A DNA stretch of 64,000 nucleotides from Escherichia phage LPEK22. The notes under the pieces are model-generated. The model did not search any database. It was given only the letters and a program-made list of their open reading frames with translations, and was not told where the DNA came from. Of the stretch, positions 41,204 to 46,342 are shown one piece after another. Each line of letters opens with the position of its first letter. Position 1 is the stretch's first letter. Made by a program: the position numbers and the translations under genes. The DNA lies in the sequence record OK283619.1; one strand, 5' to 3'.

Positions 41204-41668
41204 ATGGCGCGTAATACGCTGGACATCTTAAAACTTTCAGCTGTCAACGATGAGGCCAGCATTGTTGACTGTATGGTTGAAGTTCAATTGAACCAAGACA
41301 AACCAGGGATTTTCCTGGGTATCAAGGAAACGCTGAGTCGGATAGGGGTTAACACTCGTCAAGAGCCTAACACCTTGTATCAAACGTGCCATATTCTGCA
41401 TAAATTTGGCAGATATCACATCGTGCATTTCAAGCATCTTTTCATGCTAGATGGGCACTACAACGGCTTTACGCGTGAAGATGTCCTGCGTATGAATCGG
41501 ATTATACGGCTTCTGGAGCAATGGAATATGGTTAAGATCTTGCATCCGGAACAAATAACCGAAGTGGCTGACATGTCTCGGATCAAAGTTGTAAAACATG
41601 ACCAAGTTTCTGAGTGGAAACTGGTTCCAAAATACACCATTCGCCCAAGTCGGGCAAAAAGCGAATAA
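41204..41668 (+). CDS. regA: RegA-like translational repressor
   Basis: LYQTCHILHKFGRYHIVHFKHLFMLDG and EWKLVPKYTI match T4 RegA (LYQSCHILQKKGLYYIVHFKEM, EWKLVPKYTI) as recalled. Confidence 0.85.
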   Translation: MARNTLDILKLSAVNDEASIVDCMVEVQLNQDKPGIFLGIKETLSRIGVNTRQEPNTLYQTCHILHKFGRYHIVHFKHLFMLDGHYNGFTREDVLRMNRIIRLLEQWNMVKILHPEQITEVADMSRIKVVKHDQVSEWKLVPKYTIRPSRAKSE

Positions 41669-41684
41669 CTGGAGTCGCTATATT

Positions 41685-42548
41685 ATGACAACTACATTTA
41701 ATAAAAACGTGAGATTGAATTTGGCTTTTGGTAATGCGGCTGGAGATATTACAGCCCCTGACTTCGGTAAAATTCGCAATCAGGCCAAACTGGTTCTGGA
41801 AGAGACCCGCGAATTACTGGAAGCGGCTTATTTCGATCATGACATCAAACTTGAGCTGGTGGCAACTCCAAAAGAAGACACCGATGATGTTGATATGGAT
41901 AAAATCCTGAAAGCCATCATGGACGCTCAGGGTGATATCACAACTGTTAATGACGGCGTGGCCCATATCGCTGGTTTTAATGGTGATGAATGTTTACAAC
42001 GCGTGTTTGCCTCTAACATGAGCAAATTTATTCGCTCAGAAGATGAAGTCGGTCCGGCACTGGAATATTATTATTCACGCGGTTTCCCAGATGGCCAGTT
42101 ACGCGTTGAAGGTGAATTCCCTCAGGCATGCATCAAAGTGAATGAGACTGTGATGTGGAATGGCAAAGAATATCCGAAAGGAAAATTCCTGAAAAACATG
42201 GCTGTGTTCAAAGAGCCTGATTTCTCTGATATGCTGACGAATACCCCTTCCCGTCAGATCAATGACATCGTTGCCAGCATGGCAATTGAAGAAGGTCAGG
42301 TATTTGTTGATGATATGAACGGCGTGGCGTTGGTATCTCCAAAAACGTTGGAAGTAATTCTTTCTATGGCAGTTGAAAAATCTTCTCGACCCGTAGATGT
42401 TAACGGCCAAATTGAAAGTTATGTGCCAGCGTATATCATTAACGATACCAATATGCCTAAGCTGTGTGGGGTGTGGGGTGCTAATGTTCGTGTATACGCG
42501 TGCGCACCTGTTCAAAACACTGTGACACACCTCTCTCGCTTCGATTAA
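41685..42548 (+). CDS. Hypothetical protein (287 aa); N-terminal region is possibly a MazG/HisE-like nucleotide pyrophosphohydrolase
   Basis: ATG at 41685 with GGAG RBS (track start at 41598 overlaps regA). LVLEETRELLEAA resembles the EExxE metal-binding helix of MazG-type all-alpha NTP pyrophosphatases. Weak. Confidence 0.45.
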   Translation: MTTTFNKNVRLNLAFGNAAGDITAPDFGKIRNQAKLVLEETRELLEAAYFDHDIKLELVATPKEDTDDVDMDKILKAIMDAQGDITTVNDGVAHIAGFNGDECLQRVFASNMSKFIRSEDEVGPALEYYYSRGFPDGQLRVEGEFPQACIKVNETVMWNGKEYPKGKFLKNMAVFKEPDFSDMLTNTPSRQINDIVASMAIEEGQVFVDDMNGVALVSPKTLEVILSMAVEKSSRPVDVNGQIESYVPAYIINDTNMPKLCGVWGANVRVYACAPVQNTVTHLSRFD

Positions 42549-42572
42549 TATAATCCGTTATTCACTAAACAA

Positions 42573-42600
42573 CAGAGGCTATAATGGCCTCTGTTTTTGT
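42573..42600 (+). terminator. Rho-independent terminator
   Basis: cagaggc/gcctctg stem with tataatg loop, followed by tttttg. Confidence 0.7.
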
Positions 42601-42617: not shown

Positions 42618-43823
42618 ATGAAAGATAAACCACATGACATCCCATATTGCGGTGTCCGTGAAACCAAAATCAAATCAGCCCATCCTATGTTAAGTTCATT
42701 CCACCGCCAGCTGGCATATGAATGGATGAGGGATCGTTATGCGATACATGTCAAGAAGGACGTGCAATGCCTTCCAGCGCCATGGACGGATAATCCGGTA
42801 TTACGCCAAGTCAAGTTTTGTAACGTGCGGAGAGAGCACGATAGGCAGTCTCGAAATTTGATCAATAATATCATCCTCGATCAGGATCTCACGCTATCTG
42901 ACAAAATGTTCAACTGTGTATTGTTCCGCATGTACAACATGTGGGAACCTATACAGGCTTTGGGTGGTCCATGGACGATCGAAGAATTCGGAAACATAAA
43001 TCTTGAATGGTGTCGAGATGTTCTTCAGGAATTCGAATCTAAAGGTGGCAAAGTTTTCACCAATGCGTTTAATACAGGCGGTCTGAAACAATGCCTGGCT
43101 TTCCCTGAACTAGTTGTCAACCACAAGGAGCAACGCTTTGGCGGCATGAAGGTAAAAGTCCATCGGGTTGGCGGTGTTATAGATGAAATGGATTACAAGG
43201 TTGCCAAGAAGCTGGCCGAAGATAATCCTGGTGAATACAAAATAGAAGGCTGGGAACCATACATGCCGATGCGAGTCATCCGCTCTTTGAAGGCATTCGT
43301 CAACAAACACCCTCATTACTTTGATCGCCTCAGGGAATTTAGCCGTCCCGACTCTGTTTACCAGGCGATGTATGACGACATTGAGGGGCTTGGACCATTC
43401 TTGGCATACCAGATTTGGGTTGATTTTACATACATCGATGAATATCCATTCAGTGAAAACCACTTCACTATCGCTGGTCCAGGTTGCCGTGCTGGTATCG
43501 ATCTGTTATTTTTGGACAAGGACGGCATGACGCATGAAGAATGCATATTCTGGGTTCGTGATCATCAAGATCAATTGTTCGCTCAGTACGGGTATAAACG
43601 TAATGAATTTTGGTCGGCAGAAGAACCGGAAGACCGTTGCATGAATGTTATGCAGTTGGAGAACATGTTCTGTGAACTTCAGAAATATACCCGCTGCGTT
43701 GAGGCGGTGATGCGCGGGGAGAAACCTCGAGGAAAGGTGGGGTATAATGGTGGTGAAGTTAATCAGCCATTACAGAAGACTCCCGTTCGTTCTATTAATC
43801 TGTTAGAGAAGATGAAAAAATGA
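42618..43823 (+). CDS. Hypothetical protein (401 aa), unassigned enzyme-sized ORF
   Basis: ATG at 42618 with RBS agagagga (track start is TTG). No P-loop, no thymidylate-synthase or ThyX motif seen. Confidence 0.55.
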   Translation: MKDKPHDIPYCGVRETKIKSAHPMLSSFHRQLAYEWMRDRYAIHVKKDVQCLPAPWTDNPVLRQVKFCNVRREHDRQSRNLINNIILDQDLTLSDKMFNCVLFRMYNMWEPIQALGGPWTIEEFGNINLEWCRDVLQEFESKGGKVFTNAFNTGGLKQCLAFPELVVNHKEQRFGGMKVKVHRVGGVIDEMDYKVAKKLAEDNPGEYKIEGWEPYMPMRVIRSLKAFVNKHPHYFDRLREFSRPDSVYQAMYDDIEGLGPFLAYQIWVDFTYIDEYPFSENHFTIAGPGCRAGIDLLFLDKDGMTHEECIFWVRDHQDQLFAQYGYKRNEFWSAEEPEDRCMNVMQLENMFCELQKYTRCVEAVMRGEKPRGKVGYNGGEVNQPLQKTPVRSINLLEKMKK

Positions 43824-44227
43824 AACCCGTAAAACATCATCGTTCATGGAAAGTATGCCCAGCGTGTTCAAGTCGGGCGACAAAATTGTTCAACATGAAT
43901 ACTGGGAAATATGAATGTCAAGTCTGTCGGCATCATTATGATGATCCAAAATGTCGATCTTTGGTCGACAAAATTTATAAATTTATCATTTTGTTGGGTA
44001 ATTGCGAGCAATATCAATATACCGTGTATGGTGATAGTTTAAGCCAGATCGATAAACATCTTTTGAAATTGATTTCGAAATACGATAAAGAAAGCAAGCG
44101 CCCTGTGCGCGTTGTGAGTACTCCAAAGGGTTATCCAAAGGGAACAAGATCAGTTACGGTTGTTGGTTACACCAGTTATGACGGGAAACGGTTCAGAAGT
44201 ATTCGAGTAAACATGATTCCCGTTTAA
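43820..44227 (+). CDS. Zinc-ribbon protein (135 aa)
   Basis: CPAC...CQVC pattern. ATGA overlap with the upstream gene. Confidence 0.5.
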   Translation: MKPVKHHRSWKVCPACSSRATKLFNMNTGKYECQVCRHHYDDPKCRSLVDKIYKFIILLGNCEQYQYTVYGDSLSQIDKHLLKLISKYDKESKRPVRVVSTPKGYPKGTRSVTVVGYTSYDGKRFRSIRVNMIPV

Positions 44228-44323: not shown

Positions 44324-46342
44324 ATGGCAGAATTCAAACCCTTCGCAACGGCAGTTAATAACAACGTGCTGGCGATGTCCGCAACTGGTCTGTTCATGAC
44401 CAATATCGATAAAGATGCTCTTTGGGATCTGTATCTGGCATCTTTCCCTGCTGGTACTAACCCGCTGTACCGCGAACGTACTGAACACGATTGCACCTGC
44501 TGTAAACAATTCATCCGTAACATCGGCGGTGTTGTCACCATCGATTCAGAACTGAACGTAATTTCTATCTGGGACAACATTGATCTGGGTAATGAATATG
44601 ACGTGGTGGCTGCGGCTCTTTCCGCGTATGTCAAACAACACGCAATCGTCGATGTTTATTTTAACGATTCTGCCAAAGTCGGCCTGTCTCACAATCACGA
44701 ATCTGGTGAAGATGGCAAAATCCGTACTTACAATCATTTCCATACCCAATTACTTGGTAGCTATGTTCTGCGTCCGGACGCAATCGCTTCGAAAAAAGGT
44801 GAAATCCGCCAGGCTATTGAATTGTTTGAACGCGGTCTGCGTGAAATTACTCTGGAATCAGCTGAAATCGTTCTGGAACTGATTGACCAGAATTCTCTGT
44901 ATCGCGGCGCAGAACACAAAGCAGCAGTGAAGGGATTTGTTGAAACCAAAAAGGCATATGAACAAGTCCCCGAATCAGCCCGTTCTCTTTGGGCATGGCA
45001 TACTGGATACCGTTCAAACAATCATGTTCCACACGGCATCCGCAACACAGTTATCGGCACTCTGCTGACAGATATCAGCGAAGGCGTGGAACTGGAAAAG
45101 GCTGTTAAATCGTTTGAATCCAAAGTTGCTCCGGCGAACTACAAACGTCCGACAGCGCTGGTTTCAAAATCCATGATCGAAAACGCTCAGAAAGAAGTTA
45201 TTGCTCTGGGTTTGGAAGACTCACTGGCGCGTCGTTATGCGGTTTACGATGATCTGACAATCAACAACGTTCTGTTCGCAGATCTGGCCGCTCAGAAAGC
45301 GATGGATCCGTTTGCACAGCTGGCCGCCGAAGTGAAAACTCCGACCAAATCCCTGGAAAAAGTTGAAGAGATCAGCGTTGATGATTTCCTGAGCAATGTT
45401 CTGCCAAAAGCGCATTCAATGGAAGTGCTTGTAGAGAATTCTCATACTAGCAACCTGATGTCCCTGGTTGCTCCGGCGAACCCAGATGCGCCTAACCTGT
45501 TCAAGTGGAACAACGGTTTCTCCTGGTCTTACAACGGTGAAGTGACCGATTCCATTAAAGAACGTGTAAAGGCTGCTGGTGGTAAAGTTGACGGGTATCT
45601 GCGCGTTTCCTTGGCGTGGCACAACAACGACGACCTCGATCTGCATATGTTCAACAACATGGAGCACGTTTACTTCCGTGATCGCCGCTCTATGACAGGT
45701 GCCCATCTGGATATCGATATGAACGGTATGGATGGTATTGATCCAAACCGCGCTCCGGTGGAAAATATCATCTTTACAGATGAAAGCAAGCTGCGCGATG
45801 GTGAATACCGTTTCGAAATCCACAACTACAATCAACGTGAAAAAATCGACGAAGGGTTTGAAGTCGAAGTAGAATACAAAGGCGCAACGCATCGTTTCAG
45901 CCATCCTGGCCTGAAAGATCAGGGGCGTATCACTGCAGTCATCCTGACTGTTAAAGACAAACAAGTTGTTGGCATTAAGTCCGAACTGGCTAATGTTGAT
46001 AAGTCTAAAGAAGTTTGGGGTATCAAGACCGCGACCTTCCAGAAAGTACAGCTGGTTCTGAATTCACCAAACCATTGGGATGGGGAGCAAACTGGTAACA
46101 AGCATGTGTTCTTCATTCTTGAAGGCTGTGCTAATCCTGAAGGTACTCGTGGTTTCTACAACGAATATCTGAAGCCGGAACTGGATAAACATCGTAAGGT
46201 TTTTGAAATGTTGGGTAGTAAAATGAAAGTCCAGCCGAATGAAAACCAACTGTCCGGTCTGGGATTCTCGACGACGCAACGCAACCACGTGTTCGTCAAA
46301 GTGTCCGGCGCGTTTAACCGTACTGTAAAAGTCATTTTCTAA
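44324..46342 (+). CDS. Hypothetical protein (672 aa), unassigned
   Basis: Long clean ORF with ATG and upstream caggaagactataccATG context. No motif recognised by eye. Confidence 0.6.
   Translation: MAEFKPFATAVNNNVLAMSATGLFMTNIDKDALWDLYLASFPAGTNPLYRERTEHDCTCCKQFIRNIGGVVTIDSELNVISIWDNIDLGNEYDVVAAALSAYVKQHAIVDVYFNDSAKVGLSHNHESGEDGKIRTYNHFHTQLLGSYVLRPDAIASKKGEIRQAIELFERGLREITLESAEIVLELIDQNSLYRGAEHKAAVKGFVETKKAYEQVPESARSLWAWHTGYRSNNHVPHGIRNTVIGTLLTDISEGVELEKAVKSFESKVAPANYKRPTALVSKSMIENAQKEVIALGLEDSLARRYAVYDDLTINNVLFADLAAQKAMDPFAQLAAEVKTPTKSLEKVEEISVDDFLSNVLPKAHSMEVLVENSHTSNLMSLVAPANPDAPNLFKWNNGFSWSYNGEVTDSIKERVKAAGGKVDGYLRVSLAWHNNDDLDLHMFNNMEHVYFRDRRSMTGAHLDIDMNGMDGIDPNRAPVENIIFTDESKLRDGEYRFEIHNYNQREKIDEGFEVEVEYKGATHRFSHPGLKDQGRITAVILTVKDKQVVGIKSELANVDKSKEVWGIKTATFQKVQLVLNSPNHWDGEQTGNKHVFFILEGCANPEGTRGFYNEYLKPELDKHRKVFEMLGSKMKVQPNENQLSGLGFSTTQRNHVFVKVSGAFNRTVKVIF

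What the first reader, a model, noticed from the sequence alone, without database searches (positions are those of the whole stretch)
41685..42548. Possible MazG-like NTP pyrophosphohydrolase next to regA
The N-terminal region has an EETRELLEAA helix resembling the metal-binding EExxE motif of MazG/HisE-type pyrophosphatases. In phages with non-canonical bases such enzymes remove the canonical dNTP from the pool. The call is weak and the protein is longer than typical MazG.
Basis: inference. Interest (0 to 1): 0.4.

Follow-up and report, generated by a model that had tools for sequence, protein, structure and literature searches.

The report
Second NTP pyrophosphatase of ViI-like phage
The ORF is a real gene for a MazG/DR2231-like nucleotide pyrophosphatase with an extra orphan C-terminal domain. 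Public phage records already name it that way, and its substrate is unknown because the same phage lineage has another, better-supported dTTP/dUTP-clearing enzyme.

Summary
The window is a Kuttervirus (ViI-like Ackermannviridae) genome, 99.8% identical to Salmonella phages D5lw, bering and Mutine. ORF 41685-42548 (287 aa) is real. It lies 16 nt after regA, has a GGAG ribosome-binding site and is followed by a terminator hairpin. RefSeq and GenBank already call it 'MazG-like pyrophosphatase' or 'NTP pyrophosphohydrolase'.

The family call holds:
- PHROG 2144 matches full length (E 5e-136).
- 30 of 50 diverse homologues hit Pfam PRA-PH, 18 hit MazG.
- The family profile hits the solved dUTPase DR2231 (E 5e-8).
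- E40, E43, D84, K167 and K170 are invariant.

The motif alone was weak evidence. Residues 190-287 form a fast-evolving domain found only in close orthologues, with no known relative.

The implied role (removing dTTP) is not established. Kutterviruses, PhiW-14 and SH-Ab 15599 also encode a dUTPase_2-type enzyme beside dUMP hydroxymethylase. Its SH-Ab 15599 version was shown experimentally to be the dTTPase/dUTPase. This ORF is therefore a conserved second pyrophosphatase of unknown substrate. Ordinary and already annotated; low interest.

The parts
41204..41668 (+). regA translational repressor gene, the upstream neighbour (context)
   Evidence: Pfam Translat_reg E 4.1e-35 and phrog_242. Annotated regA in Mutine and ViI.
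41671..41674 (+). GGAG ribosome-binding site, 10 nt before the ATG
   Evidence: Read from the sequence. An RBS is annotated at the same place in phage Mutine.
41685..42548 (+). CDS of the 287-aa two-domain protein (orthologue of ViI Vi01_131c / orf00161)
   Evidence: 85% identical to ViI Vi01_131c. phrog_2144 E 4.8e-136. 277 homologues in the protein database.
41685..42239 (+). N-terminal catalytic domain (aa 1-185): DR2231-like all-alpha NTP pyrophosphohydrolase
41799..41828 (+). EETRELLEAA (aa 39-48); E39/E40/E43 are the first acidic metal-binding motif
   Evidence: E40 and E43 are invariant in A2 and A3. The motif aligns with EESAE of DR2231.
41922..41936 (+). D80-A-Q-G-D84, the second acidic motif on helix 71-96
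   Evidence: D84 is invariant and D80 is at least 90% conserved. D84 aligns with the D of DR2231 ELAD. The partner acidic residue is shifted by one position: D80 rather than position 81.
42012..42026 (+). S110-N-M-S-K114 motif
   Evidence: Invariant among orthologues. Aligns with ANLSK of DR2231.
42183..42194 (+). K167-F-L-K170 basic motif, likely phosphate binding (inferred)
   Evidence: K167 and K170 are invariant in 77 homologues. The same GK.LK motif occurs in DR2231. The role is inferred by analogy with the basic residues of C. jejuni dUTPase (PMC10014863).
42252..42545 (+). C-terminal alpha/beta domain (aa 190-287), clade-specific, function unknown
   Evidence: pLDDT about 71-86. Found only in ~290-aa orthologues. 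Only 33-43% identity where the N-domain has 76-88%. No PDB or BFVD analogue.
42571..42595 (+). Intrinsic-terminator-like hairpin (11 pairs) plus T-run, closing the clamp / clamp-loader / regA / NTP-PPase gene block
   Evidence: A terminator is annotated at the same place in Mutine.
42618..43823 (+). Downstream neighbour: aGPT-Pplase1, orthologue of ViI gp160 (context, thymidine hypermodification)
   Evidence: Pfam PF18723 E 1.7e-83. Syntenic with Vi01_130c / orf00160. gp160 is listed as aG/PT-PPlase1 in PMC5889632.

Best explanation
The ORF encodes a two-domain enzyme.

Residues 1-185 are a DR2231-like member of the all-alpha (MazG / HisE / dimeric dUTPase) NTP pyrophosphohydrolase superfamily. 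Acidic residues on two adjacent helices (E39/E40/E43 and D80/D84) would hold divalent metal ions. Conserved lysines (K114, K167, K170) would hold the phosphates. The enzyme would cut a nucleoside triphosphate between the alpha and beta phosphates, giving the monophosphate and pyrophosphate.

The gene is the last one in the sliding clamp / clamp loader / regA block, so it is probably expressed with the replication genes (inferred). It most probably trims the deoxynucleotide pool while the phage makes 5-hydroxymethyl-dU DNA. The most likely substrate is a pyrimidine dNTP, dUTP above all.

It is a second pyrophosphatase, not the primary thymidine-excluding one. The lineage also carries a dUTPase_2-type enzyme next to dUMP hydroxymethylase. 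Residues 190-287 are a fast-evolving, clade-specific domain of unknown role.

Shown here: gene, fold, family, motif conservation, synteny. Inferred: catalysis, substrate, expression timing.

Sub-probabilities: member of the superfamily 0.9; active pyrophosphohydrolase 0.75; substrate is dUTP and/or dTTP about 0.4.
For: - Sequence family: phrog_2144 'MazG-like pyrophosphatase' matches full length at E 4.8e-136, and phrog_671 'nucleotide pyrophosphohydrolase' matches aa 2-189 at E 2e-18.
- Pfam by transitivity: of 50 homologues found by exhaustive phmmer, 30 match PRA-PH, 18 MazG and 13 MazG-like.
- Solved structures: the family profile hits DR2231 at E 4.6e-8, and more weakly AF_0060, SSO3215 MazG and E. 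coli MazG.
- Conservation: E40, E43, D84, G91, K167 and K170 are invariant.
- Closest characterised relative: DR2231 is reported as exclusively a dUTPase (title of Mota 2016, cited).
- Host phage biology: ViI-like phages build DNA from 5-hmdUTP (PMC8989533; PMC3184105).
- Lineage conservation: the gene is kept near regA in ViI, in a Vibrio Ackermannviridae phage and in PhiW-14. SH-Ab 15599 has a divergent homologue elsewhere in its genome, next to exonuclease A.
- Transcription unit: a terminator follows the gene directly.
Against: - No direct Pfam or NCBIfam hit for this protein itself, and no single-sequence PDB hit.
- Foldseek against the PDB found nothing.
- The fourth acidic ligand is displaced: DxxxD instead of ExxD.
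- No biochemical data exist for any member of this phage clade. None was found in the two literature searches aimed at this gene or at phage dTTPases, which returned only genome-annotation papers and the gp18 study.
- dTTP and dUTP hydrolysis is already covered by the dUTPase_2-type enzyme in a related phage.
- ViI hypermodification of 5-hmdU DNA was reconstituted in lysates without this protein (PMC5889632). Pool remodelling in E. coli was achieved with SH-Ab 15599 genes that did not include its DR2231-like gene.
- Standalone homologues occur in Cbunavirus and Samunavirus phages, which are not known to use hmU.
Confidence: 0.7

Rival explanations
1. It is the thymidine-excluding enzyme: a dTTPase, or dTTPase/dUTPase, that removes dTTP so that only 5-hmdUTP enters phage DNA.
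For: - CBA120 does not incorporate labelled thymidine, so a dTTPase must exist (PMC3184105).
- PhiW-14 infection induces a dTTPase whose gene was never assigned (PMC5977210), and PhiW-14 has a homologue, gp207.
- The gene sits beside the hypermodification gene gp160.
Against: - Kuttervirus, PhiW-14 and SH-Ab 15599 all also carry a dUTPase_2-type gene directly beside dUMP hydroxymethylase and dNMP kinase.
- The SH-Ab 15599 version of that gene (gp18) hydrolyses dTTP and dUTP but not 5hmdUTP in vitro.
- Kutter et al. already assigned the dTTPase role to that gene.
- DR2231, the closest characterised relative of this ORF, is reported to act on dUTP only.
- Adjacency to gp160 is not conserved in the Vibrio phage or in SH-Ab 15599, and a terminator separates the two genes.
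Confidence: 0.15
2. It supplies precursor rather than removing a competitor. For example, it could be a dCTP/dCDP pyrophosphatase giving dCMP to the phage dCMP deaminase, which makes dUMP for the hydroxymethylase. MazZ plays this kind of role for PurZ, and T4 gp56 for dCMP hydroxymethylase.
For: - ViI-like phages encode dCMP deaminase (PMC3184105; PMC10892097).
- gp18 of SH-Ab 15599 has no activity on dCTP, so that step is unassigned.
- MazG-like enzymes do act as precursor feeders in other modified-base phages (MazZ, PMC8342488).
- That enterobacteria lack another major dCMP source is my own knowledge, not tested here.
Against: Pure inference: nothing in the sequence points to cytosine. Hydrolysing dCTP would also drain a nucleotide the phage needs for its own DNA.
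Confidence: 0.08
3. It is a general house-cleaning or host-interaction protein unrelated to the modified base. It could remove damaged or non-canonical nucleotides or a signalling nucleotide, with the variable C-terminal domain binding a host or phage partner.
For: - Close standalone homologues (about 50% identity) occur in N4-like Cbunavirus phages, and more distant ones in Samunavirus, in unrelated genomic contexts.
- The superfamily is classically described as house-cleaning (PMC10014863).
- The C-terminal domain and the loop at 49-75 are mosaic and evolve much faster than the catalytic core.
Against: The gene is conserved with the replication block across the whole hmU T4-like lineage, PhiW-14 included. 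No defence or anti-defence evidence was obtained.
Confidence: 0.15
4. It is not a pyrophosphatase but a PAS-domain protein, as some UniRef entries name its orthologues.
For: The UniRef label 'PAS domain-containing protein' appears on P0002, P0011 and P0020. There is a weak Pfam PAS_4 hit, E 0.15.
Confidence: 0.02

Closest known systems
DR2231 of Deinococcus radiodurans (MazG-like NTP pyrophosphohydrolase; PDB 2yeu, 2yf3 and others)
   Same: It is the best solved-structure match of the family profile (E 4.6e-8). The aligned motifs are EESAE / EETRE, (E)LAD / (D)AQGD, ANLSK / SNMSK and GKQLK / GKFLK. It is a MazG-like (all-alpha) NTP pyrophosphohydrolase described as a two-metal-ion hydrolase (paper titles).
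   Different: - DR2231 is about 140-150 residues long and bacterial.
- The phage protein has a ~45-residue alpha/beta insertion between the SNMSK and GKFLK motifs, a variable loop, and a ~100-residue extra C-terminal domain.
- The second acidic pair is DxxxD rather than ExxD.
- The substrate of the phage protein is untested.
Exig_1061 / YP_001813558.1 (PDB 3nl9, DUF2166 putative NTP pyrophosphohydrolase)
   Different: 3nl9 is a segment-swapped linked dimer with unknown substrate. Sequence similarity is marginal (E 0.15).
SH-Ab 15599 gp18 C-terminal domain / T4 gp56-type dimeric dUTPase (Pfam dUTPase_2, PF08761)
   Same: It is assigned to the same all-alpha superfamily in the literature (PMC2954211). 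It comes from the same phage family, Ackermannviridae. It is the experimentally shown dTTPase/dUTPase that supports a thymidine hypermodification pathway.
   Different: It is a different family: BLASTP and hhalign find no significant similarity. Its Kuttervirus orthologue is a separate gene, about 52 kb away in STP55, next to dUMP hydroxymethylase and dNMP kinase.
MazZ of cyanophage S-2L
   Same: A MazG-like enzyme in a phage with a non-canonical base. It shapes the dNTP pool and sits in the base-replacement gene cluster (PMC8342488).
   Different: MazZ is (d)GTP-specific and feeds PurZ. It is small and has only two extra strands. No homology to this ORF was tested here beyond superfamily membership.
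PhiW-14 gp207 ('MazG-like pyrophosphatase', 339 aa)
   Same: Same DR2231-like domain (hmmsearch E 9e-40, with EE..E, D...D, SNMSK and KGKYLK all conserved). It lies within about 2 kb of regA in another T4-like hmU phage.
   Different: The domain is at the C-terminal end, after a ~180-residue unrelated N-terminal extension. It lacks the Kuttervirus C-terminal domain.

Membership tests
All-alpha NTP pyrophosphohydrolase superfamily (MazG / HisE / dimeric dUTPase) | Helical-bundle core fold | tested here: met
All-alpha NTP pyrophosphohydrolase superfamily (MazG / HisE / dimeric dUTPase) | Four acidic metal ligands, ExxE ... ExxD, on two helices (PMC10014863) | tested here: met
   E40 and E43 are invariant, D84 is invariant and D80 is at least 90% conserved in 50-77 homologues. 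One variation: the second pair is DxxxD, with the first acid shifted by one residue relative to DR2231 ELAD.
All-alpha NTP pyrophosphohydrolase superfamily (MazG / HisE / dimeric dUTPase) | Significant sequence or profile match to family models | tested here: met
   Direct Pfam and NCBIfam scans of this protein gave no hit. However, phrog_2144 matches at E 4.8e-136, 30/50 homologues hit PF01503 and 18/50 hit PF03819, and the family profile hits DR2231 at E 4.6e-8.
All-alpha NTP pyrophosphohydrolase superfamily (MazG / HisE / dimeric dUTPase) | Metal-dependent hydrolysis of NTP to NMP plus pyrophosphate; dimer or tetramer assembly | not testable with these tools
   Needs an enzyme assay and an oligomer analysis.
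MazG proper (Pfam PF03819) | Match to the MazG domain model above the gathering score | tested here: not met
   This protein has no PF03819 hit at E <= 1. Only 18/50 relatives hit at E <= 0.01, fewer than for PRA-PH. 'MazG-like' is a superfamily label here, not membership of MazG proper.
DR2231-like subfamily | Shared EExxE, xxxD, SN(M/L)SK and GKxLK motifs, in order | tested here: met
   HMM alignment to DR2231 chains; conservation.
DR2231-like subfamily | Exclusive dUTPase activity | not testable with these tools
   Known only from the title of Mota et al. 2016. No specificity determinants could be mapped.
Dimeric dUTPase / T4 gp56 dCTPase family (Pfam PF08761 dUTPase_2) | Match to the dUTPase_2 model or to characterised members | tested here: not met
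   No PF08761 hit. BLASTP against gp18 gives E 2.0. hhalign gives probability 0.14 and 0.08. A different Kuttervirus gene does meet the test (30.6 bits against a cut-off of 22.9).
PAS domain | Match to a PAS model, or a PAS fold | tested here: not met

The most novel reading that the evidence does not exclude
The DR2231-like enzyme is not redundant with the dUTPase_2-type dTTPase/dUTPase. It would have its own specificity, for example feeding dCMP or dUMP into the 5-hmdU pathway, or acting on dTTP alone. Its fast-evolving, mosaic C-terminal domain would be a new regulatory or partner-binding module that ties the enzyme to the replication or nucleotide-synthesis machinery, or to a host factor. 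This would explain why every T4-like hmU phage examined here keeps two all-alpha pyrophosphatases.
Probability: 0.25. Interest if true: 0.45.

Novelty: already known. Interest (0 to 1): 0.2.

Why it matters
Little changes for annotation, because the gene is already labelled correctly at the superfamily level.

The useful point is a caution. In ViI-like phages, 'MazG-like' should not be read as 'the dTTPase'. The lineage has two all-alpha pyrophosphatases, and the biochemically supported dTTP/dUTP-clearing enzyme is the other one.

If someone assays this protein, the result would fill one unassigned step in the pre-replicative pathway that replaces thymidine by 5-hydroxymethyl-dU. It might also give a function to an orphan domain found only in these phages.

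Tried and rejected
- **Direct family scans of the protein.** Pfam gave only sub-threshold noise (VanA_C, PAS_4, DNA_III_psi) and NCBIfam gave nothing.
- **PDB sequence searches.** The single sequence found nothing. The shallow orthologue profile A1 gave only a chance hit to 2dyy, E 0.4.
- **afdb50 fold search.** The library was not available.
- **Homology to the characterised dTTPase/dUTPase gp18.** BLASTP and hhalign were both negative, so the gp18 result cannot be transferred by homology.
- **'PAS domain' label.** Rejected.
- **Longer ORF from ATG 41598.** Rejected as the start, because it overlaps regA and no orthologue supports it.
- **Papers not held in the library.** The two DR2231 papers and the EcoSal review on hypermodified DNA could not be read.

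Full report
**What the window is.** The 2.6 kb around the finding is 99.8% identical to Salmonella phages D5lw, bering and Mutine. It matches 264 phage records, nearly all of them ViI-like phages of Salmonella, Klebsiella, Escherichia and Dickeya. Mutine and ViI are classified as Ackermannviridae, genus Kuttervirus. These phages replace thymidine by 5-hydroxymethyl-dU during replication. They then convert part of it to 5-(2-aminoethoxy)methyl-dU (PMC5889632; PMC8989533).

**The observation.**
- The ORF is real. ATG 41685 is preceded by GGAG at 41671-41674, and the stop codon is at 42546-42548.
- The mechanical ORF that starts at 41598 overlaps regA and is not supported by any orthologue; M1 of MTTTF is invariant.
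- regA lies directly upstream at 41204-41668 (Pfam E 4e-35), after the clamp and clamp-loader genes.
- An 11-bp-stem hairpin with a T-run at 42571-42595 follows the stop. It is annotated as a terminator in Mutine.
- EETRELLEAA is residues 39-48.
- The motif on its own is poor evidence. 7 of 135 long stop-to-stop segments in this window contain EE..E, and 4 also have a second acidic pair at the right distance.

**Family and fold of residues 1-185.**
- Direct Pfam, NCBIfam and PDB sequence searches of the protein found nothing.
- PHROGs gave a full-length match to phrog_2144 'MazG-like pyrophosphatase' (E 4.8e-136) and a match of residues 2-189 to phrog_671.
- An exhaustive phmmer search of 1.8 billion cluster representatives found 232 relatives. 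Apart from the three closest (P0121-P0123), their matches fall within roughly residues 1-190, with a few running to about 240. Many are standalone proteins of 155-190 aa.
- Of 50 diverse relatives, 30 match Pfam PRA-PH, 18 match MazG and 13 match MazG-like.
- A profile of these 50 hits the solved MazG-like dUTPase DR2231 at E 4.6e-8. The motifs align in order: EESAE / EETRE, ELAD / AQGD, ANLSK / SNMSK and GKQLK / GKFLK. Weaker hits go to AF_0060, SSO3215 MazG and E. coli MazG.
- E40, E43, D84, G91, K167 and K170 are invariant in alignments of 50 and 77 sequences. N12, Q33, D80, H94 and G97 are nearly so.
- AlphaFold2 on the 77-sequence alignment gave mean pLDDT 87.4.
- One departure from the canonical pattern: the second acidic pair is DxxxD rather than ExxD.
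- Conclusion: the N-terminal domain is a DR2231-like member of the all-alpha NTP pyrophosphohydrolase superfamily. It is not MazG proper, and it is not the T4 gp56 / dUTPase_2 family.

**Why the protein is long.**
- Relative to DR2231 there is a variable loop at residues 49-70 and a ~45-residue helix-plus-hairpins insertion between SNMSK and GKFLK.
- There is also a C-terminal domain at about residues 190-287. It is modelled at pLDDT about 71-86 as strands and one helix.
- This domain occurs only in the ~290-aa orthologues.
- It has no Pfam family (VanA_C E 0.014, below the cut-off). It has no credible PDB or viral-structure analogue.
- It is only 33-43% identical in pairs whose catalytic domains are 76-88% identical.
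- Other members of the family carry different accessory parts. PhiW-14 gp207 has a ~180-residue N-terminal extension. The SH-Ab 15599 homologue has an internal insertion. Pseudomonas phage FBPa45 has an unrelated C-terminal tail.

**Context and the functional question.**
- The downstream gene (42618-43823, Pfam PF18723 E 1.7e-83) is the orthologue of ViI gp160. gp160 is the aGPT-Pplase1 used in the lysate reconstitution of the ViI hypermodification. The finding's ORF is ViI Vi01_131c / orf00161 (85% identity). It was not part of that reconstitution.
- Its position near regA is old. In a Vibrio Ackermannviridae phage a 166-aa version follows regA after one small gene. In PhiW-14 a homologue lies about 2 kb from regA.
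- Adjacency to Pplase1 is not conserved. In SH-Ab 15599, regA is followed directly by the Pplase1-like gene, and the DR2231-like gene is elsewhere, next to exonuclease A.
That meets a stronger candidate. Kuttervirus STP55, whose copy of residues 1-189 is identical to the window's, has a separate cluster about 52 kb away. That cluster is dUMP hydroxymethylase, dNMP kinase and dUTPase_2 (PF08761, 30.6 bits against a cut-off of 22.9). The same cluster exists in PhiW-14.
- In SH-Ab 15599 the kinase and dUTPase_2 parts are fused as gp18. gp18 was shown in vitro to hydrolyse dTTP and dUTP to the monophosphates plus pyrophosphate. It showed no activity on 5hmdUTP or any other dNTP or NTP tested (PMC13458397).
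- Kutter et al. had already predicted that the CBA120 dUTPase doubles as the dTTPase (PMC3184105).
- This lineage therefore keeps two all-alpha pyrophosphatases, and the finding is the uncharacterised one.

**Best reading.**
- The protein is most likely an active, metal-dependent (d)NTP pyrophosphohydrolase expressed with the replication genes.
- Its most likely substrate is a pyrimidine dNTP. dUTP is favoured because DR2231 is reported as dUTP-exclusive (title cited).
- The substrate is nonetheless open.
- Alternatives are a dedicated dTTPase, a dCMP or dUMP feeder, or a house-cleaning or host-interaction role. The last is suggested by close homologues in N4-like Cbunavirus and in Samunavirus phages, and by the mosaic loop and C-terminal domain.

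**Novelty and verdict.**
- RefSeq, GenBank and UniRef entries for identical or near-identical proteins already read 'MazG-like pyrophosphatase' or 'nucleoside triphosphate pyrophosphohydrolase'.
- A published Vi01-like phage gene table lists an NTP pyrophosphohydrolase next to regA (PMC10892097).
- The finding is correct at the family level, already known, and ordinary.
- Two small questions remain: the substrate of this second enzyme, and the role of its orphan C-terminal domain.

Noticed in passing
window 42618-43823 (+): The downstream neighbour is the orthologue of ViI gp160 (aGPT-Pplase1, Pfam PF18723 E 1.7e-83), a thymidine-hypermodification gene. Most public records label it 'hypothetical protein'. 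The mechanical ORF starts at TTG 42597, but the annotated start is ATG 42618.
   Followed up: partly
window 43820-44227 (+) and 44324-46342 (+): A 135-aa zinc-ribbon ORF (phrog_16119, called 'transposase' in phage D5lw) and a 672-aa ORF with no Pfam family (phrog_1735) follow the Pplase1 gene. ViI has differently sized genes at this position (Vi01_129c and Vi01_128c), so this stretch may vary within Kuttervirus; the sequences themselves were not compared.
   Followed up: no
window 41829-41909 (aa 49-75) and 42252-42545 (aa 190-287): The loop at residues 49-75 and the C-terminal domain are mosaic between lineages. ViI carries the loop type seen in Klebsiella-phage orthologues. Some Salmonella-phage orthologues (for example P0029) combine a Kuttervirus-type N-domain with the C-domain type also seen in Shigella phage Ag3 and a Dickeya phage. 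The pattern suggests domain-level recombination or diversifying selection.
   Followed up: partly
L004 3928-6091 (Salmonella phage STP55, outside the window); L013 423-2655 (PhiW-14); L003 10020-12326 (SH-Ab 15599): There is a conserved cluster of dUMP hydroxymethylase, dNMP kinase and dUTPase_2-type pyrophosphatase. The last two are fused in SH-Ab 15599 gp18, the experimentally shown dTTPase/dUTPase. The hmU T4-like lineage therefore carries two all-alpha pyrophosphatases.
   Followed up: yes
L010 31347-32132 (PhiW-14 gene 37, YP_003358891.1): RefSeq names this gene 'terminase small subunit', but it is the 5-hmdU DNA kinase demonstrated in PMC8989533. The same phrog_800 'terminase small subunit' label gave a weak hit (E 5.7e-5) on the window's Pplase1 gene, and it was already questioned in PMC9409062.
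   Followed up: partly
L009 20270-21121 (-) (SH-Ab 15599 AXF41522.1): This unannotated 'hypothetical protein' is a divergent DR2231-like pyrophosphatase homologue (E 1e-29) with a ~65-residue insertion and a degenerate second acidic motif. It is not mentioned in any of the passages of the paper that characterised gp18 which were retrieved here.
   Followed up: partly
L004 6091-6621 (STP55_orf00167): The gene just after the dUTPase_2-type gene matches Pfam 'Phage ACT-like domain' (PF24021, E 2.5e-86). This may be a small-molecule-binding regulator sitting within the nucleotide-metabolism cluster.
   Followed up: no
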